From: a virus
Lineage: Duplodnaviria; Heunggongvirae; Uroviricota; Caudoviricetes
Direction: 5' to 3' (one strand)
Length of the DNA stretch: 64,000 nt
Virus record (IMG/VR): IMGVR_UViG_3300036768_001066
This document shows, piece after piece, positions 6,686 through 61,088 of the stretch. The position numbers and the translations under genes are program-made. Each line of letters starts with the position of its first letter. Position 1 is the stretch's first letter. Below the pieces are notes generated by a model. It did no database searches. It saw nothing but the letters and a program-made list of their open reading frames with translations, and was not told the DNA's origin.

Positions 6686-7651
6686 ATGAGCAACGAGTTC
6701 GACATTTTCAACCTCTCATCGGAGAATCTAATTACTCCGCAGAAGACCGGTAAGGCCGGAGAGATCTATGCGCCATCCGCCGACAAAGGACGCGACGGCA
6801 TCTACAAAGCGCTTATCCGCTTCCTCCCTAACGTGAGGAACAGCGAGAAGTCTAAAATCAAGAAGAGCTACTACTGGCTCGAAGACCCTATCTCGGGGGA
6901 GAGCTTCGGTGTCGACGATCCCGCTACAGTGGGCAAGAAGTCGATACTCGCGGACACGTTCTGGAAGCTCAAGAAGAGCACATCAGTACGCGACCAGGAG
7001 CTGGCAGAGAAGTTCTCGAGGAACGACAACTTCTTCAGCCTCGTTCAGATCATCAAAGATCCGAACCAGCCTGAGCTCGAGGGCAAAATCATGGTGTTCA
7101 AATTCGGCATCAAGATCAACCAGAAAATCGAGGCGCTTCTTAAGCCATCGGAGTTCGGCGAGCCAATCAACCCGTACGACCTCTTCAACGGCAAGCTTTT
7201 CGCGCTTCACATCGTGAAGAAGCAGAAGTGGAACAACTACGACCTCTGCGAGTTCGTGGGTGACAAGACCCCGCTCGTCCTGGAAGGCAAGCCTATCCAG
7301 AGGACAAAGGAGGACATGGCTCGCGTGGTGGAGTGGCTCAAGGCTAACTCGCCAGAGCTCGAGAAGTACGACTACAAGGAGTGGACCGAGGAGCAGTACG
7401 AGAAAGTCCTGAACGCCATTCGCAACATCATACCTGACGGAAGGCTCGTGGAGCAGATCCTCGGTGGCGCAGGCAAGGCCGGAACCAAGACCCCTGCATC
7501 GGACGGCACGGCATCGGAGACTCCGGCAGCCAGGCCATCGACCAGCTTCGACGACCTGATGGGCGGTACCGGCGCGAAGGCCGCTTCTAAGGCGGAGACA
7601 AAAGGCAGTGGTTCTGTATCGAGCCTCGACGACCTCTACAACAACCTGTAA
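6686..7651 (+). CDS. single-stranded DNA-binding protein, T4 gp32-like
   Basis: ALIRFLP resembles AVIRFLP of gp32. LVQIIKDPNQPELEGKIMVFKFGIKINQKIEA resembles [31 protein letters not shown]. Acidic C-terminal tail LDDLYNNL. Confidence 0.8.
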   Translation: MSNEFDIFNLSSENLITPQKTGKAGEIYAPSADKGRDGIYKALIRFLPNVRNSEKSKIKKSYYWLEDPISGESFGVDDPATVGKKSILADTFWKLKKSTSVRDQELAEKFSRNDNFFSLVQIIKDPNQPELEGKIMVFKFGIKINQKIEALLKPSEFGEPINPYDLFNGKLFALHIVKKQKWNNYDLCEFVGDKTPLVLEGKPIQRTKEDMARVVEWLKANSPELEKYDYKEWTEEQYEKVLNAIRNIIPDGRLVEQILGGAGKAGTKTPASDGTASETPAARPSTSFDDLMGGTGAKAASKAETKGSGSVSSLDDLYNNL

Positions 7652-7755
7652 GGGCGTACGACAAGGTCCCGTAAGGCCGCGTCAATTCTGAGAGGAAGCC
7701 CCGTAAGGCTTCCTCTCTTCTTCATTATCATTAACGCACAATCAAGATACAATCG

Positions 7756-8880
7756 ATGCAGAATTTAGAATTCAAGATGTCCGGCGAATCCAAGCCGCAG
7801 GTACAGATGTCGCTTGACAGGGTGGACACGCTGCTGCACGCTGTGCTCAGGAAGAGGTTCCCCGGCGACTCTGAGAGACAGACCGTACTACACAAGGGCG
7901 TGAGGCAGAACTTCTGCTGCCCGTACTGCGGCGACTCGGCAGACCCTCGCAAGAAGAGGGGCAACTTCTACACCAACTGGCTTTACTTCAAGTGCTACAA
8001 CGCGGGATGCGAGAAGTACACCGACTTCATCTGGTTCCTCAAGGACTTCGACTGCTACGACGAGCTGACCGAGGACGAGAAGGTGGCGGCGCGCCTGAGC
8101 ATAGACGAGAGCAAGAAGACGTCTCGGCTCAGCAAGATGCGGAGTTATGAGCTGAATGTGGACGCGATGTCGTCCATAGATTTCTCCAAGGCCCTCGTGC
8201 CGAGGGCGGACATGATGAAGGCGTGCAAGCTCTACAACATCTGGGAGAACCACCCCATCGGCGTGTACCTGTCCAAGAGGCAGCAGAAGCTCGGCAACCA
8301 TTTCGCGTGGGACAACTACAGGAAGCGGCTCTTCATATTCAATCTCGACAAGTCCGGCGACTGGATATTCGGCATGCAGACGAGACAGTTCGGCGAGGCA
8401 GAGAAGACGGGAGCGAAGTACAAGACCTACGGCATCGAGGACGTGTGGTCGAAGTTCATGCGCCGCAACGATCCTGCGTTCCTCGAGTACGTGTCGAAGG
8501 TGAACCACCTCAGCACGATATTTGGCGTGCTCCAGATGGACTTCAACAGGATGATAACTATATTCGAGGGCCCGCTCGACCACTTCTGCTTCGGGGGCAA
8601 CTCGGCCGCGACGTGCTCCATAAATAACGAGTGGCCGTTCGACCTGGACAACAAGAGGTGGTTCCAGGACAACGACGAGGCGGGTCGCAACAAGGCGCTC
8701 GAGTACCTGGCGGCTGGCGACAGCGTGTTCATGTGGAAGAAGTTCCTGTCCGACAACGAGATACCCGCGCACAAGATAAAGGACTTGAACGACGTACGCG
8801 TTTACGAGTGGGCGAACAACAAGAAGTACGACTTCGAGGACTACTTCACGCAGCACAAACTTGACGGAATAAACATATAA
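7756..8880 (+). CDS. DNA primase, T4 gp61/DnaG-like (zinc ribbon plus TOPRIM)
   Basis: CCPYCGDS...CYNAGC zinc-binding element, then a TOPRIM-like FEGPLDHF ... DNDEAGRNKA. Confidence 0.7.
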   Translation: MQNLEFKMSGESKPQVQMSLDRVDTLLHAVLRKRFPGDSERQTVLHKGVRQNFCCPYCGDSADPRKKRGNFYTNWLYFKCYNAGCEKYTDFIWFLKDFDCYDELTEDEKVAARLSIDESKKTSRLSKMRSYELNVDAMSSIDFSKALVPRADMMKACKLYNIWENHPIGVYLSKRQQKLGNHFAWDNYRKRLFIFNLDKSGDWIFGMQTRQFGEAEKTGAKYKTYGIEDVWSKFMRRNDPAFLEYVSKVNHLSTIFGVLQMDFNRMITIFEGPLDHFCFGGNSAATCSINNEWPFDLDNKRWFQDNDEAGRNKALEYLAAGDSVFMWKKFLSDNEIPAHKIKDLNDVRVYEWANNKKYDFEDYFTQHKLDGINI

Positions 8881-8941
8881 CAGATGGCACACAAATACCG
8901 AGGACAAGGTACATCCCAAGGACGCGCCATGGCTCGAGAAC

Positions 8942-9367
8942 ATGAAGATTCTTCATGTGGAGACCCAGATAATAAATTCTCACGAGGCGGCCTCGTACTA
9001 CGGCCTGGCGCTGCAGCTGGCCAAGGAGGCTGGGTATACGCACGTGCGCGACAACCGGGGACCTGTCGGATACGACGATTTCACAATCGATGAGGCAATA
9101 AATAACTACGAGACCGCATTAAAAAACAGAACACAGACGATGAACTCCCCTTCTGAGATAAACGACGAGAACCAGAGGCAGCTCGACGAGTGGGACCCAG
9201 ACAAGGCGAAGGTCAAGGGAACGCTCAAGGCCCCGATAGAGTTCAAGGCCGACGTCGACGAGGTGAAGATTGACGTGGATTTTGACGAGCCAAAGGAGGC
9301 CAAGATTGTCAATAAAAAGGCCAAGATCGTGAGCGTCGGCAAGAGGAACAAAAACAGTTTATTTTGA
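8942..9367 (+). CDS. hypothetical protein
   Basis: 141-aa ORF with codon bias. Confidence 0.45.
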   Translation: MKILHVETQIINSHEAASYYGLALQLAKEAGYTHVRDNRGPVGYDDFTIDEAINNYETALKNRTQTMNSPSEINDENQRQLDEWDPDKAKVKGTLKAPIEFKADVDEVKIDVDFDEPKEAKIVNKKAKIVSVGKRNKNSLF

Positions 9368-9377
9368 TATAATAGAG

Positions 9378-9929
9378 ATGAACAAGGATAATAACGTGCA
9401 CGACATATTCAAGCTCGATCACATGCACGGGGACTCGGGCATGAATCTCCACGCTGCAATATCTAAGCAGGAGGAGTTGATGCAAAATAGGATGTTGGCT
9501 GATACCGATCCCGAGGAACTATACGCGATTGAGCGATCCCAGTTTACACAGAGAATTATTAGCGTATCAAAGGCACATCAAAACGGTAATGCGGACGAGG
9601 CCGTCAGAGCACATTTAGAATTGTTCAATATACAAGGTGAGGCAAGGGAGAAGATGCACGAGTACGTTAGGGTTTTAAACAAATTACTCACAAGATTACG
9701 TAAAGAAAAAAAACAGGCTACGGATAGGTACGTTAACGCATCCAAAAAATTTACTAATAATCAGGTTGACGCGATGGTTGAGGGTGATCTTGCCGATCTG
9801 ATAGCCACTATAAAGGTGATAGAGGACCAAGTTAATTTCTTCCATGACATTGAGAAACAGACAATAAATATGTCATTTTCTATTAAGTACATCAGCAACT
9901 TAAATAATTTCATGCGGGAAAATTCATAA
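9378..9929 (+). CDS. hypothetical protein in a low-GC island
   Basis: 183-aa ORF whose codons often end in A/T, unlike its neighbours. Confidence 0.45.
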   Translation: MNKDNNVHDIFKLDHMHGDSGMNLHAAISKQEELMQNRMLADTDPEELYAIERSQFTQRIISVSKAHQNGNADEAVRAHLELFNIQGEAREKMHEYVRVLNKLLTRLRKEKKQATDRYVNASKKFTNNQVDAMVEGDLADLIATIKVIEDQVNFFHDIEKQTINMSFSIKYISNLNNFMRENS

Positions 9930-9934
9930 CTAAT

Positions 9935-10147
9935 ATGAATATAACAGACTACAAGATAGATTCTTCAAGGCTTCGCCGGTACACGGGTGGGTGCGATGAG
10001 CTTTTTGCCGAGCTCGTCACTGAGGCGGTGGAGAAATTTTTACAGATGGGTGACCCGTCTCCGGGAGGACTTGGCGGCGTGTATATGCCGAATATTCAGA
10101 CAATCGAGTTCCTTGTTGATTGCAAGGTGCTCGTCCAAAAAGAATAA
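9935..10147 (+). CDS. hypothetical protein
   Basis: 70-aa ORF. Confidence 0.35.
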   Translation: MNITDYKIDSSRLRRYTGGCDELFAELVTEAVEKFLQMGDPSPGGLGGVYMPNIQTIEFLVDCKVLVQKE

Positions 10148-10153
10148 AATGCC

Positions 10154-11710
10154 ATGATGCACTTCGAGGTAATGGACAATGGTGAGTGGTTGAGGCTCGT
10201 CGAATACGACGACGAGCTCGACCTACGCCAAATTGAGATCTCCTTCACCAAGAAGGTCGCTAACCATTTCTTCAGGAAGAAGTACAGCAAGAACAAGTCC
10301 TGGGACGGTAACATAGAGTTCTTCAAGAAGAAGAGGTTCCTGCCAATAGGCCTGTGGGCCGAGTTGCTCAACGTATCGAAGCAGTACGGTCTCGGCGTCA
10401 CCATCGACGGTTTGAGAGACACCATCGACGACGGCCTCACAATGGAGGAGTTCACCGCTTGGGTGAACGAGTTCTTTAAGGATGGTATTGGCGGAGACCC
10501 GAACAAGAAACCGCGCGACTACCAGATAAAGGCGGCGTTCTTGATCTGCAAGTTCAGGCGCACGAGCCAGGAGCTCGCCACGTCGGCCGGCAAGACGCTG
10601 ATAACCTTCATGGCTATCGCGTTCATGCTTCACACAAAGCGCATCAAGCGTTTCATAATGATAGTACCGACACTGAACCTCGTGGTGCAGGGAATAGAGG
10701 ACTTCCAGGAGTACGGAGCGTACAGGGTGGGTATGAAGTTCCAGCAGGTCGGCGACGGCGCGAAGGAAATACGCTCGGAGGCCAACGTGGTCATTGGCAC
10801 TTGGCAGACGCTCGTAAAGTTCGAGCGGGAGATGCTCGGCTCTTTCGATTGCGCGTTCGTGGACGAGGCGCACCAGACGCCGGCCAAGTCGATAAAGGAG
10901 ATAATCGGCAAGATAGCGAACGGAGGCGGCGGCAGGTACAGGTTCGGTCTGTCCGGCACGCTCACGGCGGCAGGTAGGGATTCGGCAGACTTCTTTACAT
11001 CGCAGGTTTGTCTCGGACCTATGGTTAACGAGGTGTCAGCGGACTTCTTGTTCCAGAACAAGTACGCGACTCCGGTGGACATCCGCATAGTAAGGATGAA
11101 CTACCTCAACGACGAGACCAGAGCGCAGCTCGCCAGGTTGAAGCAGACGAGGACCGACCTCGAGGGCTCCGACATATTCAACCTCGAGAAGAAGCTCGTG
11201 ATACGATCGAGGGAGAGGCTGAACTTTGTGGTGGACTTTATACTAAGGACCACCAAGAACTCCATCGTCCTGTTCCAGAGTGTGGAGGAGGGGTACGGCC
11301 GCGCGATATACGACCTCATCAGGGAGAAGGACCCGAAGAAGGAGGTGTACTACGTCGACGGCGACACCGACAACAGCCTGAGGGACGAGTACAAGAAGAG
11401 GATGGAAGCGGGTGAGAACAGGATTCTCATAGCAAGCTTCGGTACTTTCTCGACAGGTATATCCATAAAGAACCTGCACAACATCTTCCTTGTCGAGTCG
11501 TACAAGAGCGAGAACATCATCAAACAATCGATAGGCCGTATGATGAGGCTGCACGCGGATAAGGAGACGGCGATAGTGGTGGACTTCGTGGACGACTTCA
11601 GTCACGGCGGCAAGCCCAACTACTTGCTCAACCACATGTACGAACGCATCAAGATATACGAGAAGGAGAAGTTCCCGTACAAGGAATTCAATATAGATCT
11701 TCGCAGATAA
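10154..11710 (+). CDS. SF2 DEAH-box DNA helicase (UvsW / type III restriction res-like)
   Basis: Walker A ATSAGKT. Motif II FVDEAHQT. Motif III SGTL. Motif VI QSIGRMMR. Confidence 0.8.
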   Translation: MMHFEVMDNGEWLRLVEYDDELDLRQIEISFTKKVANHFFRKKYSKNKSWDGNIEFFKKKRFLPIGLWAELLNVSKQYGLGVTIDGLRDTIDDGLTMEEFTAWVNEFFKDGIGGDPNKKPRDYQIKAAFLICKFRRTSQELATSAGKTLITFMAIAFMLHTKRIKRFIMIVPTLNLVVQGIEDFQEYGAYRVGMKFQQVGDGAKEIRSEANVVIGTWQTLVKFEREMLGSFDCAFVDEAHQTPAKSIKEIIGKIANGGGGRYRFGLSGTLTAAGRDSADFFTSQVCLGPMVNEVSADFLFQNKYATPVDIRIVRMNYLNDETRAQLARLKQTRTDLEGSDIFNLEKKLVIRSRERLNFVVDFILRTTKNSIVLFQSVEEGYGRAIYDLIREKDPKKEVYYVDGDTDNSLRDEYKKRMEAGENRILIASFGTFSTGISIKNLHNIFLVESYKSENIIKQSIGRMMRLHADKETAIVVDFVDDFSHGGKPNYLLNHMYERIKIYEKEKFPYKEFNIDLRR

Positions 11711-11771: not shown

Positions 11772-12713
11772 ATGAAAAAACGTTATTGCAAGGCATGCTC
11801 TATGCAGGAGCACGGGGTAAAAACCAGGATAGCCATACCGCACACGTGTGGCAAGGAGCCGCGCCGCATAAAGATGTTCGAGCAGTTCGTGTTCGAATCC
11901 ACTTACAATGTGCTGCACGGTACAAAGTCTCCTAAATTCGATAAGTTCCAGGTCAGTCATGATGAGGCCAACGGGATGTACGGCACAGACTCCCCCGATA
12001 ATGGCATGGGCGTGTTCTTCACCGATAACGATACAATGGCCGAGTTCTTCGCAGGTCTAACGCACTTCGATGCCGACAAGGGCAAATACGTGTCCAAGAG
12101 CGGCAAGGGACGTGTTATGAACGTGACCATCAGTATAGATAAGCCTTACGTCATCGATGACAAACACAAGGACTACGATGCCGATAACGATATGGACTCG
12201 GTGCAGATATATTTTGACGAAATAAAGGATGCTGGCGGTGCCGATAAGTACAGAGCTTCGTTAGAGAAGCGCGGATACGACGGGATAATCCTAAAGAAGT
12301 GCACCACGAATTATTACGGGAAGGGAACTTACACTGTATACGTTGTGTTCGATCCTCGCAATACTAAAATCAACGAGAACAAGTCCAAGATATACTACAA
12401 CCACTGGGACAAGCGTTGGACCATGAAGGAGTTCGTAAAGTATTTCGTGGACGAGCTGGGACTGTTCTCCGAACAGGAGGTTTCTAACTGGTTCGAGAAG
12501 TACGACTTAACCAATGATTCCGAGGTGGTTTGGGTGTCCATGGACAAGATGTCAAACAACACCAAGGGCATGTCTGTTGACCACTATTCTGGCGCCAACG
12601 ATGCGCCGAGTGCCGATATTTCGTCCATATTTGTTGACGGTGAGGATGGGTACGTGATCCCGGAAATTTCCGACGGTGCGAACAGCTGCCTCTTTGTTGT
12701 TAAACAAAAATAG
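11772..12713 (+). CDS. hypothetical protein. Has an internal leader-like motif MFEQFVFES at residue 35, which is an alternative start at 11874.
   Basis: 313-aa ORF. TATATATAAGAT lies directly upstream of 11772. The leader-like motif sits at an internal Met. Confidence 0.5.
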   Translation: MKKRYCKACSMQEHGVKTRIAIPHTCGKEPRRIKMFEQFVFESTYNVLHGTKSPKFDKFQVSHDEANGMYGTDSPDNGMGVFFTDNDTMAEFFAGLTHFDADKGKYVSKSGKGRVMNVTISIDKPYVIDDKHKDYDADNDMDSVQIYFDEIKDAGGADKYRASLEKRGYDGIILKKCTTNYYGKGTYTVYVVFDPRNTKINENKSKIYYNHWDKRWTMKEFVKYFVDELGLFSEQEVSNWFEKYDLTNDSEVVWVSMDKMSNNTKGMSVDHYSGANDAPSADISSIFVDGEDGYVIPEISDGANSCLFVVKQK

Positions 12714-12871: not shown

Positions 12872-13765
12872 GTGAAGCATATCCACACATTCAACGACTT
12901 TCTTTTCGAGGGCGGCAACGCGCTTGACAACACCCGCAGCATCAAGCAGAGCGAGGTGCAGGCTACGCTTGACTCGATACAAGACAACGTGTTCCCGGCA
13001 CTCGGTATTTCGAGCTGGGGCACCGACGCACTGCTCATAGGCTCTGCCGGCAAGAAGGAGTCCGACGAGGACGTATCTGGTGACCTCGACGTGGGCATAC
13101 CCATGAAGGAGTTCTGTGAGAAGCAGGGCGTCGTAGAGACGCAGGGCCTAAAGCAGGTGTACGACTTGCTAAAGCGCAAGTTCCCCGAGTTCCAGATAAA
13201 GTGGATGCGCGGCCTCGAGGTCGTGTCGATGTCGTACCCTATCAAGGGTGATCCCAACCTCGGTTACGTACAGGTGGACTTCCTCCCGCTGAAGAATATG
13301 GAGTGGGCGAAGTTCATATACCATTCCCCCAACTACAAGAAGGGCGAGAGCAAGTACAAGAGCGCGCACAGGAACTGGCTGTTCGCCGCCATCCTGTCGG
13401 TGCTAACGGGAGAGGAGGAACGCGACGAGCACGGCAACTTGCTCGGGTTCTCCGGCTACATGATGAGGCTCAACGACGGTCTCAGCAAGATAAGGAAATC
13501 GTACGTTGGTAAGAAGAAACTGCTCAAGAATCCGGTCATACAACCGGAGCACGAGGAGCTGATAACCAGGTCTCCAAAGGACTTTCTGGAGTTCGTGCTG
13601 GGTCCTGGAATACGGCCCAAAGATGCAGAAACATTCGAGCAGGTGTTCGAATATATAAATAAACCCGATTATATGTTCCATGATAAATTGGACGAAATCA
13701 AACGGAATTGTATTAAATTTTTAAAACGGGTTAAGTTGGAAATCCCGGCCGAACTTGAAAAATAA
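12872..13765 (+). CDS. nucleotidyltransferase-fold protein (Pol-beta superfamily signature) with leader MKHIHTFNDFLFE
   Basis: GSAGKKESDEDVSGDLDV fits the pattern G-[GS]-x(9-13)-D-h-[DE]. GTG start directly after TATATAA. Confidence 0.45.
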   Translation: MKHIHTFNDFLFEGGNALDNTRSIKQSEVQATLDSIQDNVFPALGISSWGTDALLIGSAGKKESDEDVSGDLDVGIPMKEFCEKQGVVETQGLKQVYDLLKRKFPEFQIKWMRGLEVVSMSYPIKGDPNLGYVQVDFLPLKNMEWAKFIYHSPNYKKGESKYKSAHRNWLFAAILSVLTGEEERDEHGNLLGFSGYMMRLNDGLSKIRKSYVGKKKLLKNPVIQPEHEELITRSPKDFLEFVLGPGIRPKDAETFEQVFEYINKPDYMFHDKLDEIKRNCIKFLKRVKLEIPAELEK

Positions 13766-13974: not shown

Positions 13975-14442
13975 ATGATGAACTCAAAAAGAAATAGAAA
14001 CCCGATGGTGCAGAATAGTAATAGCTTCCTGATTGTCGCGCTGCAGTTGTTCTTAGGCGAGAGCGTGATAGGTGCAGAGAAGCACGAGGACGAGACTGTA
14101 TCGTTCGTGACGATGCGAGGCGATTCCGGGTTCATGGGTCCCAACTTCACTGGCAACTGGGATATATGGATAGGGGACGAGGTTGTATATGAAGTGGAGA
14201 GCGACCTGTACGAGATAATACAGCACCAGAAGGACGAGAACCTGATAGAGCTGTATGGGTACATAAAAAGCATAGATCCCAATGCGCTGAAGTACAAATC
14301 AAGGAGGTTCCTCGAGGTCGTGATCACCGCCATAGAGAATGTCATCCTGAACTTCACGTTGCCGCTAAACGGTCAGGTAACGATAGGCGATCAAGAGGTG
14401 ATATATAAAAACAAGAAGAAGATAAAGATAAACCTTAACTAA
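13975..14442 (+). CDS. hypothetical protein
   Basis: 155-aa ORF. Confidence 0.4.
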   Translation: MMNSKRNRNPMVQNSNSFLIVALQLFLGESVIGAEKHEDETVSFVTMRGDSGFMGPNFTGNWDIWIGDEVVYEVESDLYEIIQHQKDENLIELYGYIKSIDPNALKYKSRRFLEVVITAIENVILNFTLPLNGQVTIGDQEVIYKNKKKIKINLN

Positions 14443-14455
14443 TAAACAGAAAGTT

Positions 14456-16384
14456 ATGGCGGGAATAGCACACTTAAACGAAATCTACAAAAAGAAGGGC
14501 AAAGATTTTCTGGACAAACTATTCGACAGTTATGTCACTATAAACGAAAAGCTCGACGCGAGCGCCTTTGGTGTAGAGAAGAATCCGATCAGCAAGAAGA
14601 TCGAATTCTTCAAGCGCAACACTACAAACCCAATTTCCCAGGTGGACAGGACCCTCGTGCGTTATTACGAGGCACCTATCGAGCATATCAACAGCCTTGG
14701 CGACAAGGTGCTTGCCAAGCTACCCAGTGGATGGAGGTTCGGTATGGAGTACTTCGCCAACTCAAATCCGCAGGAGCTTGTTTATGACAAGCTCCCGAAG
14801 AACGGATTGGTGCTGTCGTACATTCACGTGAAAAACTCGGCCGGCAAGATGGTCCGTACAATCCAGGACAAGGAAGAGCTCGATAAGTGGGCAGACATCC
14901 TGCAGGTGGAGCGCGCGCCGATAATATTCCAGGGCGTTCTCAACGACGACCAGAGGATAAAGATCCTCGACTTCCTCGACACGCCGCAGGCCGAGCTCGA
15001 GAAGAAGTTCAAGACCGAGTCCTTCGTGAAGTACGTAATATCCATTCTGAACCCAAAGATGCGCAGCACGGTCCTGAACAAGGATCTGGAGAAGCCAATA
15101 GAGGGAATAGTGTTTAGGTTCGGCAGCGACGACGATGACGTGGTGCTTGCCAAGATGGTGGACCCGATATTTTCGCAGATGGCGCAGAACAGGGTCAACG
15201 AGACGAACGACACGCCGAACGACATCTATTACATGACGCTCATCGACATAGCCAACTACGTCGAGAACCTAAACCTAAAGAAGTTCAAGCCGAAGGGGCG
15301 TAACTTCGACGACAGGTACATAAACTTCATCTGCGACCTATTCATAAAGTTCATATCCGAAAGGGGGGAGGACTACAAGAACATCAACTTCTCCGAGCCG
15401 GCTTACATGAAGAAAAAGGAGTTCGACCTCAACAGGCAGATGATACCGAACCAGGAGGCGCTCGATCTCATAGACTCGGCGGACTCGTACAAGAAACTGT
15501 TCAAGATAATGCTGGCATCTCTGCGCAAGCACAAGAAGAAGGCAAACAACTTCTTCAGCCAGGAGGTTATCCGCCAGTTCAATGGCACCATAGACAAGAT
15601 AAACAACCACCTATCACAGAACCTAAGGGAGAGCCTCAACGAAAACGACGTGCCATTGTTCGGCGAGTTCATAGCACAGAGGGGCAGGCCCGAAGTTGAG
15701 GACGAGGACGCAGACACCGATGGTGATTCTGTGGATGATTCCGATCCTGAAATGACCGGGCTCAAAAACACTATGGACCTTTTGTCCGCCGATGAGCCGA
15801 AAGAAGAGGAGGACGTCAAGAAGAAATCCAAGAAGAAGGGAAAGAGGGTTAACATAATAGTCGGAAGGTTCCAGCCGTTCCACAACGGGCACGCCGAGAT
15901 GGTGAAGGAACTTAACGAGGCCAACGGCTTGCCCGTCGTAATAGTCGCCGTGCATCCGGGACACAACAAGTCGGGCAACAGCCCGTTCACTATATCCACA
16001 CTGAGGACGATGCTTGGCAACCTGCACAAGGACACCAACGACCTCGTGATCGGCTACAGGATAGTCGGCAGGGGCTTCATACAGGACATCATAGATTCGC
16101 TGAGGCCGGAGTTCGAGCCGATACTGTGGGGCGCGGGTCCTGACAGGATAAACGACTACCGCAAGCAGCTCGAGTTTAACTTCAAGCGCAACAACGAGCT
16201 CGACCTCGACGAGAAGTTCGAGGTGATGGAGACTCGGAGGATCATATCGGGTACCGACGTGCGCAAGCTCGTGGACGAGGACAAGTTCGGCGAGTTCAAG
16301 ACGCACGTGCCAAAGACGGTGCAGGGCTTGTATCCTATACTTAGGAACGACATCCATAATAGCAAAGAACCCGCCAATCAGTAA
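14456..16384 (+). CDS. multidomain protein. N-terminal domain of unknown function with a KLDAS motif (possible ligase-like K-x-D-G variant), an acidic linker, and a C-terminal NMN/NaMN adenylyltransferase domain (NadM/NadR type).
   Basis: The C-terminal region has GRFQPFHNGH (G-x-F-x-P-x-H-x-G-H nucleotidyltransferase signature) and later ISGTDVR. The linker is DEDADTDGDSVDDSDPE. Confidence 0.55.
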   Translation: MAGIAHLNEIYKKKGKDFLDKLFDSYVTINEKLDASAFGVEKNPISKKIEFFKRNTTNPISQVDRTLVRYYEAPIEHINSLGDKVLAKLPSGWRFGMEYFANSNPQELVYDKLPKNGLVLSYIHVKNSAGKMVRTIQDKEELDKWADILQVERAPIIFQGVLNDDQRIKILDFLDTPQAELEKKFKTESFVKYVISILNPKMRSTVLNKDLEKPIEGIVFRFGSDDDDVVLAKMVDPIFSQMAQNRVNETNDTPNDIYYMTLIDIANYVENLNLKKFKPKGRNFDDRYINFICDLFIKFISERGEDYKNINFSEPAYMKKKEFDLNRQMIPNQEALDLIDSADSYKKLFKIMLASLRKHKKKANNFFSQEVIRQFNGTIDKINNHLSQNLRESLNENDVPLFGEFIAQRGRPEVEDEDADTDGDSVDDSDPEMTGLKNTMDLLSADEPKEEEDVKKKSKKKGKRVNIIVGRFQPFHNGHAEMVKELNEANGLPVVIVAVHPGHNKSGNSPFTISTLRTMLGNLHKDTNDLVIGYRIVGRGFIQDIIDSLRPEFEPILWGAGPDRINDYRKQLEFNFKRNNELDLDEKFEVMETRRIISGTDVRKLVDEDKFGEFKTHVPKTVQGLYPILRNDIHNSKEPANQ

Positions 16385-16422: not shown

Positions 16423-16455
16423 CAATAACCGTTCCGTAGAGGGAACGGTTTTTAA
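16423..16455 (+). terminator. rho-independent terminator (aaccgttcc / ggaacggtt plus T-run)
   Basis: 9-bp hairpin followed by TTTTTAATTTTTTT. Confidence 0.6.
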
Positions 16456-16783: not shown

Positions 16784-17110
16784 ATGGGACTTAAGAAATT
16801 CGGAGAGTTCGAGACGACCCGCAATGAGGCGCTCGAAGCGGAGAAGGCCAACGCTTGGAAGAAGCTCGATGACGAGCGCACAATCATTGGCGTTGAGTGG
16901 CGCGGAGCCGGTAAATGGGGGACGGTAGGTATCGTTGCCGTGCACAACACGAAGATGAACTACTGGACCGCTTACATGGGCGTGGCCGATGAGCGTGACG
17001 AGCGGCAGGACGCATTCGCTATCGCGGACTACGGCAATAAGATGGTGCCGGAAGAGGCCAAGGCGTACTTCCCGCACATCAAGGACATCAAATACAAAAT
17101 GGAGGACTAA
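16784..17110 (+). CDS. hypothetical protein, leader family (MGLKKFGEFETTRNE)
   Basis: 108-aa ORF. Confidence 0.5.
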   Translation: MGLKKFGEFETTRNEALEAEKANAWKKLDDERTIIGVEWRGAGKWGTVGIVAVHNTKMNYWTAYMGVADERDERQDAFAIADYGNKMVPEEAKAYFPHIKDIKYKMED

Positions 17111-17640
17111 TGAGGAAGATATTCACATTCGATAGGTTCGTAAACGAGAACTACGTAAACGAGGACGGCTACGGCGATCTTCCTTTTTTCTACGCCAAGA
17201 ACGGCGACGTGGCTAACTACTTCTTCAAGGTAGGGGCGGAGACTCAGCGCGGTTTCGTGATAAGCATCGGCAAGTTCAGCAAGTTCGCACAACCATCTGA
17301 GGGCAAGGCCGAATACTCAGTGCTGTCCATAACGGAATTGCCGGTCGATGCTATCGATCAGGCTGTTATCGACAAGGGAAATTTCGAGACCAACGACAAC
17401 CACATCGAGGTCGACGAGCGTGAACTCAACAAAGTACTCGAGATGCTCTGCAAATGCGTTGAGGACTACCTGCAGAAGAATCCGAAAGTTACCAAGTTCT
17501 ACGACGAGATGCAGGCTAACCTGAGGAACACTCAGTACACGTCTAAGATGACTGCGCATCTCGACAAGTGGCCAGGTGGCCAGGGCGCTTGGAAGATGCA
17601 GGAGGTAGAAGCCGGCAAACTAAACTACATTGTTAAATGA
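17110..17640 (+). CDS. hypothetical protein, leader family (MRKIFTFDRFVNENYVNE)
   Basis: 176-aa ORF. Confidence 0.5.
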   Translation: MRKIFTFDRFVNENYVNEDGYGDLPFFYAKNGDVANYFFKVGAETQRGFVISIGKFSKFAQPSEGKAEYSVLSITELPVDAIDQAVIDKGNFETNDNHIEVDERELNKVLEMLCKCVEDYLQKNPKVTKFYDEMQANLRNTQYTSKMTAHLDKWPGGQGAWKMQEVEAGKLNYIVK

Positions 17641-20368: not shown

Positions 20369-21223
20369 ATGAAAAAATTCGGATTATTAGCGATAGCTCT
20401 GAAGATAGGATCAAAGATCCTGAGCATACTCGCAAAAAGCACAAAGTTCGTTCTCGCCGGCGTTTCGTTCGCCGCTTACGCATACATATTCACCTGGCAA
20501 TTTTCCGTGATAATATTGTCCATGCTGATAGTCCACGAGTACGGTCATATCTGGGCTATGCAGCGTTGCGGCATAAAGACCAAGGGCATCTACCTGATAC
20601 CGTTCGTCGGCGGTCTCGCGGTCTCGGACGGCATGGCCAAGTCGAGGTGGGATGAGGTCTACATCGCTATGATGGGGCCCATATTCGGGTTCGCCCTATC
20701 GGTGGTGTCTCTTGTCATATACTGCGCCACCATGGACCCCCTATTTGCCGCGTGCGCATCGTGGATGGCCATGGTCAACATACTTAATCTGTTCCCTGTT
20801 ACCCCACTGGACGGAGGCAGGGTGCTGAAATCAATAACCTTGTCGATAGACAAGCGCGTTGGGTTCGCGTACATGCTGCTTGCGCTGCTTGCCATGCTTG
20901 CGGCCGTCGTGTTTCTCGGCCTGTGGACGTTTGTCGTCCTGATAATAATCGGTGGCCTCGAGCTTTACTTCGAGTACCAGAGCCACAAGATACAGCAGAC
21001 GTTGACCGAACTGGAGAAGCACAAGCCCAACCTGACCGATGAGAGCGCGAAGATCATGGACGAGCTGATAGAGAAGCACCGCGATACTACGGAGAAAATG
21101 GACGGGCGCATGATGATAAAGTCGATGGCGCTTTACCTTTTGGTGCTGGCCGCGCTGTACGTAGTTATGGCGCTGATGAACCACGTGCCCGGCGCAGACA
21201 TAGCAATGCAAATGCTTAAGTAA
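20369..21223 (+). CDS. M50 family site-2 protease (RseP/SpoIVFB-like membrane zinc metalloprotease)
   Basis: HEYGH (HExxH) inside a TM helix. LFPVTPLDGGRV (LDG motif). Multiple TM segments. Confidence 0.6.
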   Translation: MKKFGLLAIALKIGSKILSILAKSTKFVLAGVSFAAYAYIFTWQFSVIILSMLIVHEYGHIWAMQRCGIKTKGIYLIPFVGGLAVSDGMAKSRWDEVYIAMMGPIFGFALSVVSLVIYCATMDPLFAACASWMAMVNILNLFPVTPLDGGRVLKSITLSIDKRVGFAYMLLALLAMLAAVVFLGLWTFVVLIIIGGLELYFEYQSHKIQQTLTELEKHKPNLTDESAKIMDELIEKHRDTTEKMDGRMMIKSMALYLLVLAALYVVMALMNHVPGADIAMQMLK

Positions 21224-28095: not shown

Positions 28096-28932
28096 ATGAC
28101 TAAAAGAATAGACACCAAAGAGAGGAACAAGCAGATTGCGGCCCGTTATGCGGAGCTCGTGTCTGTCGATGTGTCGCCGGACGATGCTATTCAGAAAATC
28201 TCTGATGAACAGGAGATTGGCAAATTTTACGTACGCAGCATTCTCCGAGCTATTGGGGTGCGCATAGGCCGCAAGGGACAGTATGACCGCAAGGGCAACC
28301 TGTCGGACAGGGATCGCCAGATCATCGAGCTTGCCGAGAAGGGCGAGACGCCGGAGGACATTGGCAGCCGCTTTGAGATAACCCCAACGAGGGTCCGTCA
28401 GGTTGTGCGTGACAATGTCACTGATTTGAAACACGTACGCATTGAACGTACGCTGTCCGAGATAAAGAACGAAGTCGCCAACTACCAGGAGATGATAAAG
28501 TCCAACGAGAACATGAAGTCCGAGGAAAACCCGGGCGGCATCGACCGAACATGGAAAACCTGGTACCGCGGCATCACATCCAAGTACGGAGAGAAAACTA
28601 TGAGGGAGATAAAATCCAACCTCGGGTACAATCTGTTCAAGGAGTCGCAGAGATACCGCGACGAGAACATCGTGCAGATGGGCAAGATCGGCGGATTCTC
28701 GGCACAGTACACGGCAGACAAGCACGGACTGTGCAAGGATTACGTGTACAGCATCTGGCACAGCAATGGTGTGCACAAGGACAAGAAGAAGAAACTCACA
28801 CCCAAGGAGCGCCAGCAGCGAGACGCCAAGATTCGTGAAGCGTGTAAAACAAAGAAGATAGGCGAGGTCGCCAAGGATTTCGGTCTGTCGTATACAATGG
28901 TGAAACTAATAAATTCAGATAATGTCCGGTAA
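28096..28932 (+). CDS. putative transcriptional regulator with sigma-70 region-4-like helix-turn-helix motifs
   Basis: LSDRDRQIIELAEKGETPEDIGSRFEITPTRVRQVV resembles sigma region 4 / LuxR HTH. A second HTH-like IGEVAKDFGLSYTMVKLI. Confidence 0.45.
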   Translation: MTKRIDTKERNKQIAARYAELVSVDVSPDDAIQKISDEQEIGKFYVRSILRAIGVRIGRKGQYDRKGNLSDRDRQIIELAEKGETPEDIGSRFEITPTRVRQVVRDNVTDLKHVRIERTLSEIKNEVANYQEMIKSNENMKSEENPGGIDRTWKTWYRGITSKYGEKTMREIKSNLGYNLFKESQRYRDENIVQMGKIGGFSAQYTADKHGLCKDYVYSIWHSNGVHKDKKKKLTPKERQQRDAKIREACKTKKIGEVAKDFGLSYTMVKLINSDNVR

Positions 28933-59069: not shown

Positions 59070-61088
59070 ATGGCAAAAAGTTTATTCGACACAGAGGACA
59101 CGTTCATTGGCATCACCGATGCCAGTTTCGAATCTCGTCTAAAGAAGATGAGTCTCAAAGAAAAAGAAACCCTGTACCTTAAGGCTAAGGACCGCTACTA
59201 CAGCGGAGACCCTATCATGTCAGACCCGCAATTTGACAGGCTGGAGTTGTGGTTGGAGTCTGAAGATTCCAAAGTCACACAGAAGGTCGGTGGCGCCGAC
59301 GGCGACCGCGACAAGCTCATACACCCGCACATGAGTCCGATGCTTTCTCTTGAGAAGATTCAGGTTAACGATGAGGATAACTTCCCTTTGGCGGAGATCC
59401 AATCGTGGAACGCGACACACACGTATCCGCTCGAGGCAACTCCCAAATTCGATGGTAACGCAATTGAGCTTCAGTACCGTGGCGGAAAGCTTAAGCTGGC
59501 GATAACACGAGGAGAACACGGCAAGGGAGGTGACGTCACAAAGAAGCTGCTCACCATGGGTATCCCAGAGCAGCTCCCGGTCGACAAGGACATCGAGATA
59601 CGCGGAGAGGTCTGTATGCCGATGACCATTTTCAAAAACAAATACCAGAAGGATTTTAAGAACCCGCGCAACCTGGTTGCCGGCATATTGAATCCCAACA
59701 ACGATAAGGACGAGCGCTCGTCAGATTGCGCGTTCGTGGCGTACTCTGTGAAGGTACACCAGAACGGAAGAGTACACTACGTGGAAGACGCAATGGCAAA
59801 CCTCGAGCGCTTCGGCTTCAACAAGGACTATCCGGTTCGCGTTGAGACAATCCAGAACGCGCAGGATTACCGTAGAGTGTACGACATATTCAAGCATTAC
59901 CGCGAGGTGCAGTCTCCGTTCCAGCTTGACGGTATCGTATTCAAGACCCCTGAGAACAAGCGCGCTGCTATTGGGGAGAACAGCCGTCATCCAAAATGGG
60001 CGATTGCATTGAAGTTCCCTGCCAAAGAGGTTACCACAAAAATCATTTCACACGTTTGGGAAGTTGGTTATACCGGCGAGCTGAGCCCAGTTGGCATACT
60101 CGAGCCGGTTGATCTTGACGGTTCCGAGATTACGAGAGTTTCGTTGTACAACAAGTCGCGTATTATCGCGAGCGGTACGTTCCCGGGCGCGGTGGTTACC
60201 ATCCGCAAGGCCGGTGACATCATCCCGCAAATTATCAAAATAGTTCAGCCGTCTCCGGATAGCGCCAAATATATCCGCGACAAGAACTTCTTCCCTACGT
60301 GTTGCCCCGCTTGCGGAGGCAACATCGATGTTGAGGTTTACTCTACGAACAAAAAAAATGATGCGCCCACCGAGCACTTGATGTGCAACAACCCCGATTG
60401 CTCCGGTAAACTCACTCGCAAACTTTCTCTTGGTATATCCGCGTTGAAAGTTAAAGGGATCGGCGATTCCACTTGCGAGGGCCTCATCAAGTCCGGCGTT
60501 AAGACCATCTTCGACGTTTTCGATGCCACCAAATTCAACACTCAGGCATTATGTAAGGCCGGAGTATTCAAGCCTGGACGTCAGCTCGAGCTTGTCCTGA
60601 ACGCTATAAAGGCCATCAAACAGGTTGACCTTGACAAAGCGATTCTCGCACTACAATTTGATGGCCTCGGCGATACAGGGTCAAAGGCGGTTGCAGACCT
60701 CGTTGCCGGTCGCATACAGAATTTCGACAACATGGGATTGGAGAAGGCGGTTGTGGACCCGTTCTTAAATGCCAACTCTTGGCAGTCCCAGTCCATAAAG
60801 TCTTTCCTCGGAGTTTTAAAGGATAACGGCATCACAGTTAATATGCCGAAGCAGATTGCCGCAGGCGCTATCGTATTCGAGATGACTGGAAGCCCGGAAA
60901 GCGCCGGATACAAGACGAAGGAGGAGTTTGTTAATTACGTCGCACGTTACGGGTATGTGCACGGCAAGCTGGCCAAAGCGTCTCTGCTTATTACCGATTC
61001 GTATACTTCTAAAACCTCTAAGATGAAGGACGCAGAGAAGAAGGGCATCAAGATTATGACGTACGAGGACCTAATCAATTCACTGTAA
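59070..61088 (+). CDS. ligA: NAD+-dependent DNA ligase LigA (adenylation domain, OB fold, Cys4 zinc finger, HhH, C-terminal BRCT)
   Basis: KxDG adenylation motif ATPKFDGNAIELQ. Zinc finger CPACGG...CNNPDC. C-terminal BRCT-like GKLAKASLLITDSYTSKTSKMKDAEKKGIKIMTYEDL. 672 aa. Confidence 0.85.
   Translation: MAKSLFDTEDTFIGITDASFESRLKKMSLKEKETLYLKAKDRYYSGDPIMSDPQFDRLELWLESEDSKVTQKVGGADGDRDKLIHPHMSPMLSLEKIQVNDEDNFPLAEIQSWNATHTYPLEATPKFDGNAIELQYRGGKLKLAITRGEHGKGGDVTKKLLTMGIPEQLPVDKDIEIRGEVCMPMTIFKNKYQKDFKNPRNLVAGILNPNNDKDERSSDCAFVAYSVKVHQNGRVHYVEDAMANLERFGFNKDYPVRVETIQNAQDYRRVYDIFKHYREVQSPFQLDGIVFKTPENKRAAIGENSRHPKWAIALKFPAKEVTTKIISHVWEVGYTGELSPVGILEPVDLDGSEITRVSLYNKSRIIASGTFPGAVVTIRKAGDIIPQIIKIVQPSPDSAKYIRDKNFFPTCCPACGGNIDVEVYSTNKKNDAPTEHLMCNNPDCSGKLTRKLSLGISALKVKGIGDSTCEGLIKSGVKTIFDVFDATKFNTQALCKAGVFKPGRQLELVLNAIKAIKQVDLDKAILALQFDGLGDTGSKAVADLVAGRIQNFDNMGLEKAVVDPFLNANSWQSQSIKSFLGVLKDNGITVNMPKQIAAGAIVFEMTGSPESAGYKTKEEFVNYVARYGYVHGKLAKASLLITDSYTSKTSKMKDAEKKGIKIMTYEDLINSL

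What the first reader, a model, noticed from the sequence alone, without database searches (positions are those of the whole stretch)
14456..16384. NMN/NaMN adenylyltransferase domain fused to a large N-terminal domain, part of a phage NAD+ module with NadE and an NAD-dependent ligase
The C-terminal 180 aa carry the G-x-F-x-P-x-H-x-G-H motif (GRFQPFHNGH) of archaeal/NadM-type NMN adenylyltransferases. The phage also encodes NH3-dependent NAD synthetase NadE (28922-29839) and an NAD+-dependent ligase LigA (59070-61088). T4 uses an ATP-dependent ligase. The combination suggests the phage makes or restores NAD+ during infection. That could supply its ligase. It could also counter NAD-depleting defence systems of the TIR, SIR2 or SEFIR type; phage NAD reconstitution pathways doing this have been reported. 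The 450-aa N-terminal domain has a KLDAS element, possibly a degenerate K-x-D-G nucleotidyltransferase motif, and is otherwise unassigned.
Basis: partly seen in the sequence, partly recalled or inferred. Interest (0 to 1): 0.72.

Follow-up and report, generated by a model that had tools for sequence, protein, structure and literature searches.

The report
Phage RNA-ligase/NMNAT-like fusion in repair module
This jumbo-phage gene fuses a nick-sealing RNA-ligase-type enzyme to an NMN-adenylyltransferase-like enzyme and always travels with a polymerase-beta-like enzyme among the replication genes, so it looks like a nucleic-acid 'fill-and-seal' repair module and not a simple NAD+ synthesis gene.

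Summary
The ORF (14456-16384, +, 642 aa) and both motifs are real. The C-terminal 180 aa are closest, by sequence and predicted fold, to archaeal/NadM NMN adenylyltransferases. They fall far below the curated family cut-offs, and their acceptor-pocket region is not conserved with NMNATs. The 'unassigned' N-terminal 390 aa are an Rnl2/Rnl5-type RNA ligase. KLDAS is ligase motif I, and Lys32 is conserved in about 173 of 175 relatives. The proposed NAD module is not conserved: within 10 kb of about 45 related fusion loci, NadE appears once and LigA never. The conserved unit is a module inside the replisome gene block (SSB-primase-helicase...PolB): a Pol-beta/family-X-like nucleotidyltransferase (12872-13765), the ligase, the HIGH-motif NTase, and an unknown protein p176 (17110-17640). 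The components occur as a ligase-NTase fusion, an NTase-PolX-like fusion, a ligase-NTase-p176 fusion, and a three-gene operon. Best reading: a fill-and-seal nucleic-acid repair or maturation module with a dedicated NMNAT-like adenylyltransferase whose acceptor substrate is unproven. General NAD+ synthesis in jumbo phages is already published; this module was not found in the papers searched.

The parts
14456..15160 (+). Ligase nucleotidyltransferase domain (residues 1-235). Motif I is N30-E-K32-L-D34-A-S36, with Lys32 as the predicted AMP-accepting nucleophile. Motif III is F95-G-M-E98-Y-F, motif IIIa is L120-S-Y-I-H124, motif IV is E216-G-I-V-F-R-F-G223, and motif V is L-A-K233-M-V-D-P (a single Lys).
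15161..15628 (+). All-helical C-terminal domain of the ligase (residues 236-391). It occupies the position of the Rnl2 C-domain; there is no OB fold.
   Evidence: AF2 secondary structure, helices 237-386. Foldseek alignments to full-length Rnl2 span 363-380 columns.
15629..15835 (+). Disordered linker (residues 392-460): an acidic stretch followed by the basic patch KKKSKKKGK.
   Evidence: pLDDT below 50 for residues 392-460. Length and sequence vary across homologs.
15836..16384 (+). HIGH-motif nucleotidyltransferase domain (residues 461-642) with a NadM/archaeal-NMNAT fold. Family signature: G470-R-F-Q-P-F-H476-N-G-H479, S509-P-F, G561-x-D563-R564-x3-Y568-x2-Q571, T593-x-R595, S598-G-T-x-x-R603.
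   Evidence: for family and fold; for the conserved signature, which is shared by fused and stand-alone forms.
12872..13765 (+). NT297: a Pol-beta-superfamily (family-X-like) nucleotidyltransferase and a conserved partner of the fusion. Catalytic signature: G57-S ... S69-G-D71-L-D73 ... Q134-x-D136, plus S160-x-Y-K-S-x-H-R-N-W169.
   Evidence: 243 homologs, none with a Pfam domain or a name. Invariant residues. AF2 pLDDT 91.2, pTM 0.85. Foldseek top hits Pol beta, Pol mu and TdT (E 2.5e-4, about 240 columns), then CutA and Cid1. Immediately upstream of the fusion in 30 loci, between NTase and ligase in split operons, and fused to the NTase in L055.
13975..14442 (+). p155: a small protein of unknown function between NT297 and the fusion. 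Its stop is 13 nt before the fusion's ATG, so the two are probably co-transcribed. It is present in only part of the family.
16427..16450 (+). Terminator-like hairpin (9-bp stem plus T-run) 43 nt after the fusion's stop codon.
   Evidence: The overall number of such sites in the region is not above chance.
17110..17640 (+). p176: the fourth module component, function unknown. It lies downstream of the fusion in most loci and is fused to the C-terminus of the ligase-NTase in the 866-871-aa variants.
   Evidence: No PHROG or PDB sequence relatives.
6686..11710 (+). Conserved upstream context: gp32-type SSB (6686-7651), primase-like protein (7756-8880), and a UvsW/DEAD-type DNA helicase (10154-11710).
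28922..29839 (+). NadE (NAD synthase). It is real, but lies in a lineage-specific stretch between the module and PolB and is not a conserved neighbour of the module.
59070..61088 (+). NAD+-dependent DNA ligase LigA. It is real, lies 43 kb away, and is never within 10 kb of the module in related loci.

Best explanation
The gene encodes two tethered enzymes. The first is an Rnl2/Rnl5-type nick-sealing polynucleotide ligase: Lys32 takes up AMP, transfers it to a 5'-phosphate end, and the 3'-OH then attacks. The second is a HIGH-motif adenylyltransferase with the archaeal-NMNAT/NadM fold. This protein is the core of a four-part module carried in the replisome gene block of a large clade of T4-like jumbo phages. 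The other parts are a Pol-beta/family-X-like nucleotidyltransferase (NT297) and the unknown protein p176. Proposed mechanism: NT297 extends or fills at a 3'-OH, possibly with ribonucleotides, and the ligase seals the resulting 3'-OH/5'-PO4 nick. This would be a 'fill-and-seal' (ribo-patch-like) repair or maturation of gapped or nicked phage nucleic acid at or near the replication fork. The adenylyltransferase works for the module and not for bulk NAD+ metabolism. Its most likely chemistry is ATP plus a mononucleotide 5'-phosphate (NMN or NaMN) giving a 5'-5' adenylyl dinucleotide (NAD+ or NaAD) plus PPi, which would regenerate an adenylyl donor or NAD+ locally for nick sealing. Shown: the domain identities, conservation of the catalytic residues, and the physical and genomic linkage. 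Inferred: the substrates of all three enzymes, DNA versus RNA as target, and the role of the NTase.
For: Domains: ligase and NTase; NT297. Active sites under selection: Lys32 in about 173 of 175 ligase domains, the GRFQPFHxGH...GxDR...TxR...GTxR signature in most NTase domains, and GS..SGDxD..QxD invariant in NT297. Linkage by four independent arrangements: ligase-NTase fusion (more than 644 proteins; 64 of the 150 nearest NTase clusters); an abutting NTase|NT297|ligase operon in L047, L049, L050, L060 and L061; an NTase-NT297 fusion in L055; and a ligase-NTase-p176 fusion in P0058/65/76/78. A ligase + NT297 pair also sits next to the primase/helicase in cultured Agrobacterium phage Atu_ph07 (gp066/gp065). 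Replisome context (SSB - primase - helicase - NT297 - fusion - p176 ... PolB) is conserved down to 35% identity. Precedents: RlaP, a Pol-beta NTase that adds 1-2 NMPs to damaged RNA 3' ends alongside RNA ligases (PMC12776372), and the DraRnl 'ribo-patch' model, in which a nick-sealing RNA ligase closes nicks left by a ribonucleotide-incorporating polymerase, with PolX named as a candidate (PMC5397189).
Against: No biochemistry exists for any component. NT297's match to family-X polymerases is modest (TM 0.35-0.39), and RNA terminal transferases score nearly as well, so DNA versus RNA is open. Fourteen of 45 fusion loci show no NT297 within 10 kb. The ligase profile has no sequence-level PDB match, and this protein falls just under the Pfam gathering score. 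Motif V seems to lack the second lysine of ATP-dependent ligases (mapping not verified). The reason an NMNAT-like enzyme is coupled to these partners is unexplained. Some lineages carry degenerate ligase (LR756500, LR756502) or degenerate NTase domains.
Confidence: 0.55

Rival explanations
1. The C-terminal domain is a metabolic NMN/NaMN adenylyltransferase that, with NadE, makes or restores NAD+ for the phage LigA or to counter NAD+-depleting defences. The fusion to the ligase has no mechanistic meaning.
For: Nearest family by sequence and fold is NMNAT/NaMNAT. The window encodes NadE, LigA and an NAD+-consuming ART. Jumbo phages with NAD+ synthesis genes plus LigA are documented (PMC11662467; PMC9503650). 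A canonical NadM (NTase+NUDIX, L071) is a detectable though distant relative.
Against: Within 10 kb of related fusion loci, NadE appears in 1 of about 45, LigA in none, and no NadV, Nudix or RNK partners were seen. In about 19 loci PolB follows the module within 5-10 kb with no NadE in between. Sister phage L002 has a separate NadD-type/PRTase-like protein beside its NadE. Scores are far below the curated NMNAT cut-offs. The acceptor region is not conserved. A single-sequence search retrieves only 476 clusters at E<=1e-3 out of 1.84 billion representative proteins, so the large canonical NMNAT families are mostly not reached. [quoted passage not shown]
Confidence: 0.2
2. The same module, but aimed at RNA. 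It would be a counter-defence tRNA/RNA repair system analogous to RlaP plus RNA ligase: NT297 restores nucleotides lost at a cleaved RNA 3' end and the Rnl2-like ligase reseals it.
For: All top matches to the ligase are RNA ligases, not DNA ligases. RlaP biochemistry provides the precedent. CutA and Cid1 RNA terminal transferases are among NT297's matches. A polyvalent protein in L067 combines pyrophosphatase, an Rnl1-type RNA ligase (weak hit) and this NTase.
Against: The module is embedded among SSB, primase, helicase and PolB genes across the whole family. No end-healing kinase, phosphatase, 2H or Tpt1 genes and no tRNA genes were found nearby in the window. NT297 does not hit the RlaP family PF10127. 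Polyvalent proteins join unrelated activities, so the L067 fusion is weak evidence (PMC5512222).
Confidence: 0.25
3. The NTase supplies the ligase's adenylyl group directly. Either the Rnl2-fold ligase is NAD+-dependent and the tethered NMNAT-like domain recycles NMN to NAD+ in cis, or the HIGH NTase adenylylates 5'-phosphate polynucleotide ends (AppN-) that the ligase then seals.
For: This is the only known chemical link between an NMNAT and a ligase. The fusion is strongly conserved. The acceptor pocket differs from NMNATs. Motif V appears to have a single lysine, as I recall for NAD+-dependent LigA (own knowledge). LR756500 has lost the ligase lysine but keeps a near-intact NTase motif.
Against: No HIGH NTase is known to act on polynucleotide ends, and no Rnl2-fold ligase is known to use NAD+. 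Lys32 conservation argues for ordinary self-adenylylation. The NTase is at least as tightly linked to NT297 as to the ligase, and it occurs with NT297 but no ligase within 10 kb in 6 loci. The motif V mapping is unverified.
Confidence: 0.18

Closest known systems
T4 RNA ligase 2 and the other nick-sealing RNA ligases (Rnl5: DraRnl, NgrRnl)
   Different: Only about 14-16% identity, with no sequence-level PDB hit. Motif V seems to have one lysine. It is fused through a disordered linker to a HIGH NTase, and its genomic partners are a PolX-like NTase and p176.
Archaeal NMNAT / bacterial and phage NadM (NMNAT-Nudix, for example KVP40 NatV)
   Different: Far below the curated cut-offs. The central region is not alignable. 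It has its own GxDRxxxYxxQ signature. No Nudix, NadV or NadR partners; it is coupled to nucleic-acid enzymes instead.
RlaP (PF10127) plus RNA ligase RNA-repair systems
   Same: A Pol-beta-superfamily NTase genomically coupled to an ATP-dependent RNA-ligase-type enzyme.
   Different: NT297 is not a PF10127 member and resembles family-X polymerases more. The module has two further parts (HIGH NTase, p176) and sits in a replisome block.
Ribo-patch / NHEJ-type fill-and-seal repair (DraRnl with a candidate PolX; bacterial LigD POL+LIG)
   Same: A repair polymerase paired with a ligase that prefers 3'-ribonucleotide nicks; a multi-enzyme polypeptide logic (PMC5397189).
   Different: A different polymerase fold from LigD (AEP). 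It is phage-encoded, includes an NMNAT-like enzyme, and no Ku or phosphoesterase was identified.
'NAD-jumbo phage' NAD+ synthesis and usage gene sets (pncB-nadD-nadE; nadR-nadM; LigA)
   Same: The window phage has NadE, LigA and an ART. Sister phage L002 has a NadD-type/PRTase-like protein plus NadE (PMC11662467).
   Different: The ligase-fused NTase is not clustered with those genes, and the paper does not describe it.

Membership tests
Archaeal/NadM NMN adenylyltransferase (TIGR01527, PRK01153) | N-terminal (H/T)xGH nucleotide-binding motif in the form GRxQPFHxGH | tested here: met
   GRFQPFHNGH at 470-479. G470, R471, F472, Q473, H476, G478 and H479 are invariant in the 21-sequence alignment and kept in most of about 170 domains.
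Archaeal/NadM NMN adenylyltransferase (TIGR01527, PRK01153) | C-terminal SxTxxR (ISSTxxR-type) motif | tested here: met
   S598-G-T-D-V-R603 aligns with SGTEIR of MJ0541; R603 is invariant.
Archaeal/NadM NMN adenylyltransferase (TIGR01527, PRK01153) | Score above the curated whole-protein cut-off of the family model | tested here: not met
   TIGR01527: 28.5 bits against 181.2. PRK01153: 33.7 against 127. NadM bifunctional models: at most 22 against 354-449.
Archaeal/NadM NMN adenylyltransferase (TIGR01527, PRK01153) | Overall fold | tested here: met
Archaeal/NadM NMN adenylyltransferase (TIGR01527, PRK01153) | Nicotinamide-contacting residues (the Asn/Trp of DIxxNxxW, recalled from the M. thermoautotrophicum and M. 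jannaschii structures) | tested here: inconclusive
   By sequence alignment, Asn aligns to R541 and Trp to I544. Positions 541-544 vary across the family: LLGV, FIQD, YIPW, VIPQ. The alignment in this region is unreliable, and the residue list comes from memory.
Archaeal/NadM NMN adenylyltransferase (TIGR01527, PRK01153) | Association with NAD-salvage partners (NadV, Nudix, RNK, PnuC) | tested here: not met
   No NadE or LigA neighbours apart from L002, and the recurrent partners found in those loci are NT297, the ligase and p176. Ten extended relatives carry no NAD-related domain. No NadV was found among the scanned window proteins. The whole genome was not available.
Archaeal/NadM NMN adenylyltransferase (TIGR01527, PRK01153) | NMN (or NaMN) + ATP -> NAD+ (NaAD) + PPi activity | not testable with these tools
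   Needs an enzyme assay or genetic complementation.
ATP-dependent RNA ligase, Rnl2-like (PF09414) | Motif I lysine nucleophile (KxDG/KxxG) | tested here: met
   K32 in NEKLDAS. K32, D34 and S36 are invariant. The lysine is kept in about 173 of 175 domains, and the Ala35 variant occurs in 30.
ATP-dependent RNA ligase, Rnl2-like (PF09414) | Motifs III, IIIa and IV | tested here: met
   FGxE98YF, LxLSYIH and E216-G-x-V-F-R-F-G are invariant in the fusion family.
ATP-dependent RNA ligase, Rnl2-like (PF09414) | Motif V K-x-K dyad | tested here: inconclusive
   Only K233 is present in LAKMVDP; the +2 position is Val or Ile. The mapping to Rnl2 K225/K227 could not be verified.
ATP-dependent RNA ligase, Rnl2-like (PF09414) | Pfam gathering score | tested here: inconclusive
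   The window protein scores 25.6 bits against GA 27. Relatives P0058 (30.5) and P0062 (27.0) reach it.
ATP-dependent RNA ligase, Rnl2-like (PF09414) | Fold: NTase domain followed by a helical C-domain, not an OB domain | tested here: met
RlaP, RNA-ligase-associated Pol-beta NTase (PF10127): for NT297 | Match to PF10127 | tested here: not met
   No Pfam hit at E<=0.1; none of 243 homologs carries a Pfam domain.
RlaP, RNA-ligase-associated Pol-beta NTase (PF10127): for NT297 | Genomic association with an RNA-ligase-type gene | tested here: met
Family X DNA polymerase: for NT297 | Pol-beta palm with GS...DxD...D carboxylates | tested here: met
   G57-S58, D71, D73 and D136 are invariant.
Family X DNA polymerase: for NT297 | Overall fold closest to Pol beta, Pol mu and TdT | tested here: inconclusive
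   These are the top Foldseek hits (E 2.5e-4, probability 1.0, about 240 columns), but TM is only 0.35-0.39 and CutA and Cid1 follow closely.
Family X DNA polymerase: for NT297 | 8-kDa lyase/HhH DNA-binding domains and templated DNA synthesis | not tested
   NT297 is only 297 aa. No dedicated test for HhH motifs was run, and activity needs biochemistry.

The most novel reading that the evidence does not exclude
The NMNAT-fold domain may not be an NAD+ biosynthesis enzyme at all but the adenylyl-donor arm of a composite ligase. One form: an RNA-ligase-fold enzyme that uses NAD+, with the tethered domain recycling NMN to NAD+ in cis. The other form: a HIGH-motif nucleotidyltransferase that directly adenylylates 5'-phosphate polynucleotide ends for sealing. 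In either form it would work with a PolX-like enzyme as a phage replisome-associated ribo-patch repair machine.
Probability: 0.18. Interest if true: 0.85.

Novelty: new variant of a known kind. Interest (0 to 1): 0.62.

Why it matters
Automated annotation calls this protein a cytidyltransferase, NadD or PPAT (source names), so surveys of phage NAD+ genes may count it as an NAD+ synthesis gene. The evidence here shows it belongs to a conserved, widespread module found almost only in viral sequences: more than 600 proteins, but only 2 of 185,579 reference species genomes. The module links a nick-sealing RNA-ligase-type enzyme, a polymerase-beta-like enzyme and an NMNAT-like enzyme inside the replication gene block of jumbo phages. 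The in vivo role of Rnl2/Rnl5-type nick-sealing RNA ligases is a long-standing open question, and the ribo-patch repair idea lacks an identified polymerase partner. This module provides a natural, genetically linked ligase-polymerase pair, also present in the cultured phage Atu_ph07, on which that idea can be tested directly. It also raises a new question: why is an NMNAT-fold enzyme wired to nucleic-acid end-joining?

Tried and rejected
(1) I tested whether Xanthomonas phage BUDD, which has a stand-alone NTase in a tight operon, hides a split ligase. hhalign of the two upstream proteins against the family alignment gave nothing. (2) I tested whether the Pol-beta-like 363-aa protein next to the LR756502 ligase homolog, or the 421-aa protein upstream in LR756500, is an NT297 homolog. 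BLASTP found no similarity. (3) Sequence searches of PDB with NT297, the p176 profile and the ligase profile gave no usable hits. (4) Pfam, PHROG and PDB scans of the roughly 350-aa C-terminal extension of the ~1000-aa variants, which carries a GKGE..D..E.K motif that looked nuclease-like, found nothing. It stays unassigned. (5) The L067 polyvalent protein (pyrophosphatase + Rnl1-like ligase + NTase) was considered as further fusion evidence, but it was down-weighted because polyvalent proteins join unrelated activities. (6) I searched the window for other NAD-pathway genes (NadV, PncB, Nudix, PRPP synthetase) and RNA end-healing genes. None turned up among 36 scanned proteins, and the window has no tRNA genes. 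(7) The motif V mapping to Rnl2 by hhalign stopped before motif IV. (8) The NadM structure paper (PMC2258087) is not held, so the NMN-contact residues rest on memory. (9) The window has no megablast match in the phage collection.
Full report
OBSERVATION. The ORF is present exactly as described: 14456-16384 on the + strand, ATG start, 642 aa. GRFQPFHNGH occupies residues 470-479 and KLDAS residues 32-36. The window belongs to a distant T4-like jumbo phage. It encodes a Gp23-type major capsid protein (43297-44811), a prohead protease, a gp32-type SSB and a split family-B polymerase, and the identical protein occurs on a 373,759-bp metagenomic contig. The collection of deposited phage genomes holds no close relative. 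The nearest records are the 460-735-kb uncultured huge phages LR756500-504. The 28922-29839 product is an NAD synthase (PF02540 E 1.9e-49; TIGR00552 172.8 bits against a cut-off of 63.65). The 59070-61088 product is an NAD+-dependent DNA ligase (phrog_3869 E 5.6e-119).

Membership in the NMNAT families is nevertheless not established. The curated NCBIfam models score 28.5 against 181.2 and 33.7 against 127. A family profile aligns to NMNATs only over the ATP-binding motifs (GRFQPFHxGH, SGTxxR) and not over the central acceptor region. The positions that align with the nicotinamide-contacting Asn/Trp vary across the family. The residue identities come from my memory of the M. thermoautotrophicum and M. 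jannaschii structures, and the alignment there is weak. The domain also has its own conserved signature, GxDRxxxYxxQ. A single-sequence exhaustive search finds only 476 representative clusters at E<=1e-3 among 1.84 billion proteins, so the very large canonical NMNAT/NadD families are mostly not retrieved.

CONTEXT: NOT AN NAD MODULE. I fetched about 90 related loci and searched them with the window's neighbours and with local domain HMMs. Across fusion loci down to 35% identity the order is SSB - primase-like - DEAD/UvsW-type helicase - NT297 - (p155) - fusion - p176 - p134 ... PolB. NadE lies within 10 kb in only one locus (L002), the ART-PolyVal gene only in the window, and LigA in none. In about 19 loci PolB follows within 5-10 kb with no NadE in between, so the window's NadE sits in a lineage-specific stretch. 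In L002, NadE lies 2.5 kb from a 496-aa protein. That protein has a NadD-type adenylyltransferase domain (TIGR00482 E 2.5e-15, GAFCPIHNGH) and a PRPP-loop phosphoribosyltransferase-like domain (VLFDDDIHTGGT). It is a plausible dedicated NAD-pathway enzyme distinct from the ligase-fused NTase. Among the window proteins scanned, I found no NadV, PncB or Nudix and no RNA end-healing enzymes, and the window has no tRNA genes. The general notion of jumbo phages carrying NAD+ synthesis genes together with LigA is already published (PMC11662467; PMC7824862 and PMC9503650). None of these papers, nor the polyvalent-protein survey (PMC5512222), mentions this fusion.

THE REAL UNIT: A MULTI-PART MODULE. 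The 297-aa protein at 12872-13765 (NT297) lies directly upstream of the fusion in 30 of 45 fusion loci. In more distant lineages the ligase and the HIGH NTase are separate genes, and the order is NTase | NT297 | ligase, with abutting or overlapping coding regions. An example is L047: 633-1229, 1229-2113, 2115-3374. In L055 the NTase is fused to an NT297 domain (502 aa), with a second NT297 paralog and a ligase downstream. In six loci the NTase and NT297 occur together with no ligase within 10 kb. In the cultured Agrobacterium phage Atu_ph07, a ligase homolog (gp066, motif EKLDGS) overlaps the start of the NT297 homolog gp065, beside the primase/helicase, and no NTase lies within 8 kb. The 866-871-aa variants are ligase-NTase-p176 triple fusions, which makes p176 (17110-17640) a fourth component. 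Of the 150 nearest NTase clusters, 64 are ligase-NTase fusions, and ten sampled relatives with other extensions carry no NAD-related domain. The family is essentially viral: only 2 of 185,579 reference species genomes carry it, both on MAG contigs.

WHAT NT297 IS. None of its 243 homologs has a Pfam domain or a name. The family has invariant GS...SGDxD...QxD and SxYKSxHRNW motifs. A confident model (pLDDT 91, pTM 0.85) is most similar to the family-X polymerases Pol beta, Pol mu and TdT (E 2.5e-4, about 240 columns). The RNA terminal transferases CutA and Cid1 follow. The TM-scores are modest (0.35-0.39). 'Pol-beta-superfamily nucleotidyltransferase' is therefore secure, while 'family-X-like' is only the best guess. 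It is not a member of the RlaP family PF10127.

MECHANISM. Three points are shown: the domain identities, purifying selection on all three active sites, and physical or genomic coupling in four independent arrangements. From these I infer a fill-and-seal machine. NT297 adds nucleotide(s) to a 3'-OH, and the Rnl2/Rnl5-type ligase seals the 3'-OH/5'-PO4 nick through Lys32-AMP. There are two precedents. RlaP is a Pol-beta NTase that adds 1-2 NMPs to damaged RNA 3' ends alongside RNA ligases (PMC12776372). The D. radiodurans 'ribo-patch' proposal has a nick-sealing RNA ligase closing genomic nicks left by a ribonucleotide-incorporating polymerase, with PolX named as a candidate (PMC5397189). Because the module sits in the replisome block across the whole family, I favour a DNA-associated role: gap or nick repair, or lagging-strand maturation, possibly with ribonucleotide patches. 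RNA repair is the main rival.

The role of the NMNAT-like domain is the weakest step. Fold and motifs argue that it transfers AMP from ATP to a mononucleotide-sized 5'-phosphate acceptor, with NMN or NaMN the default. Its linkage argues that the product serves the module, for example a local adenylyl donor or NAD+ regeneration for nick sealing, and not bulk NAD+ homeostasis. Some lineages carry degenerate copies. The LR756500 and LR756502 ligases lack the lysine. About 11 fused NTase domains lack the HxGH or Arg residues. L048 has a degenerate fused NTase next to an intact stand-alone one. These exceptions show that the activities can be lost or redistributed.

TRANSCRIPTION UNIT. The fusion starts 13 nt after the p155 stop. 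A 9-bp-stem, T-run terminator-like hairpin lies at 16427-16450, 43 nt after the fusion's stop. p176 follows in the next unit.

VERDICT. The NMNAT-like assignment is the best available family label but fails curated membership. The KxDG guess is right and identifies an RNA-ligase-type enzyme. The 'NAD module with NadE and LigA' is not a conserved unit. What is there is a new variant of known kinds: a conserved phage ligase / PolX-like / NMNAT-like / p176 module. I did not find it in the papers I searched, and it is directly testable.

Noticed in passing
window 30830-33244 (+): An 804-aa protein with Major Vault Protein domains (MVP_shoulder E 2.1e-27, Vault_3 1.9e-9, Band_7/SPFH 3e-5). A vault-like shell protein is unusual in a phage genome.
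   Followed up: no
window 39826-40638 (+): A bestrophin-family anion-channel homolog (PF25539, E 9.4e-50) encoded by the phage.
   Followed up: no
window 34901-36328 (+); L003 16955-18352: The family-B DNA polymerase gene is only 475 aa (exonuclease plus the start of the polymerase domain), which suggests a split PolB. A similar 465-aa form occurs in a distant relative.
   Followed up: no
window 11772-12713 (+): An ART-PolyVal ADP-ribosyltransferase (PF18760, E 1.7e-12) with an N-terminal Cys/His cluster lies between the helicase and NT297. It is present only in the window's lineage.
   Followed up: partly
window 28096-28932 (+): An HTH/sigma-70 region-4-like protein whose 3' end overlaps the NadE start codon. 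It may regulate the NadE gene or be co-transcribed with it.
   Followed up: no
L002 15303-16793 (-): A 496-aa protein combining a NadD-type NMN/NaMN adenylyltransferase domain with a PRPP-loop phosphoribosyltransferase-like domain, 2.5 kb from NadE and next to a 2OG-Fe(II) oxygenase. This could be a compact phage Preiss-Handler/salvage enzyme.
   Followed up: partly
L047-L062 (e.g. L050 7391-11221); window 12872, 17110, 17811, 51299, 55891: Many unrelated adjacent ORFs in these phages begin with nearly the same N-terminal peptide (MKH[IV]K[LT]FE[QS]F[IL]NE), including the NTase, NT297 and small neighbours. Weaker versions occur in the window. The meaning is unknown; it could be a shared targeting or packaging tag, or a trace of recombination.
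   Followed up: partly
L007 10001-11962 (LR756500); L006 7833-9173 (LR756502): The ligase homologs of the 462-kb and 642-kb huge phages have lost the motif I lysine (SENLDGS, IEDVQGS). The LR756502 protein also lacks the NTase domain. They are probably catalytically dead or repurposed.
   Followed up: partly
L048 5950-6531 and 10001-11734: One phage carries both an intact stand-alone NTase and a ligase-NTase fusion whose NTase motif is destroyed (NTNFNLLTDV). One active copy appears to be enough.
   Followed up: partly
P0048, P0062, P0119 and similar (~1000 aa); L064 13013-14113: About 27 of the 150 nearest NTase clusters carry a C-terminal extension of more than 120 aa after the NTase; in the ~1000-aa forms it is about 350 aa and unassigned, with a GKGE...D...E.K motif. 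A related ORF follows NT297 in L064. No Pfam, PHROG or PDB match.
   Followed up: partly
L067 4007-11530: A 2507-aa polyvalent protein combining an InPase pyrophosphatase domain, a weak T4 Rnl1-type RNA ligase hit and the same NTase family.
   Followed up: partly
window 20369-21223 (+) and 57528-58415 (+): A phage-encoded M50 (site-2 protease-like) peptidase and a hexapeptide-repeat transferase.
   Followed up: no
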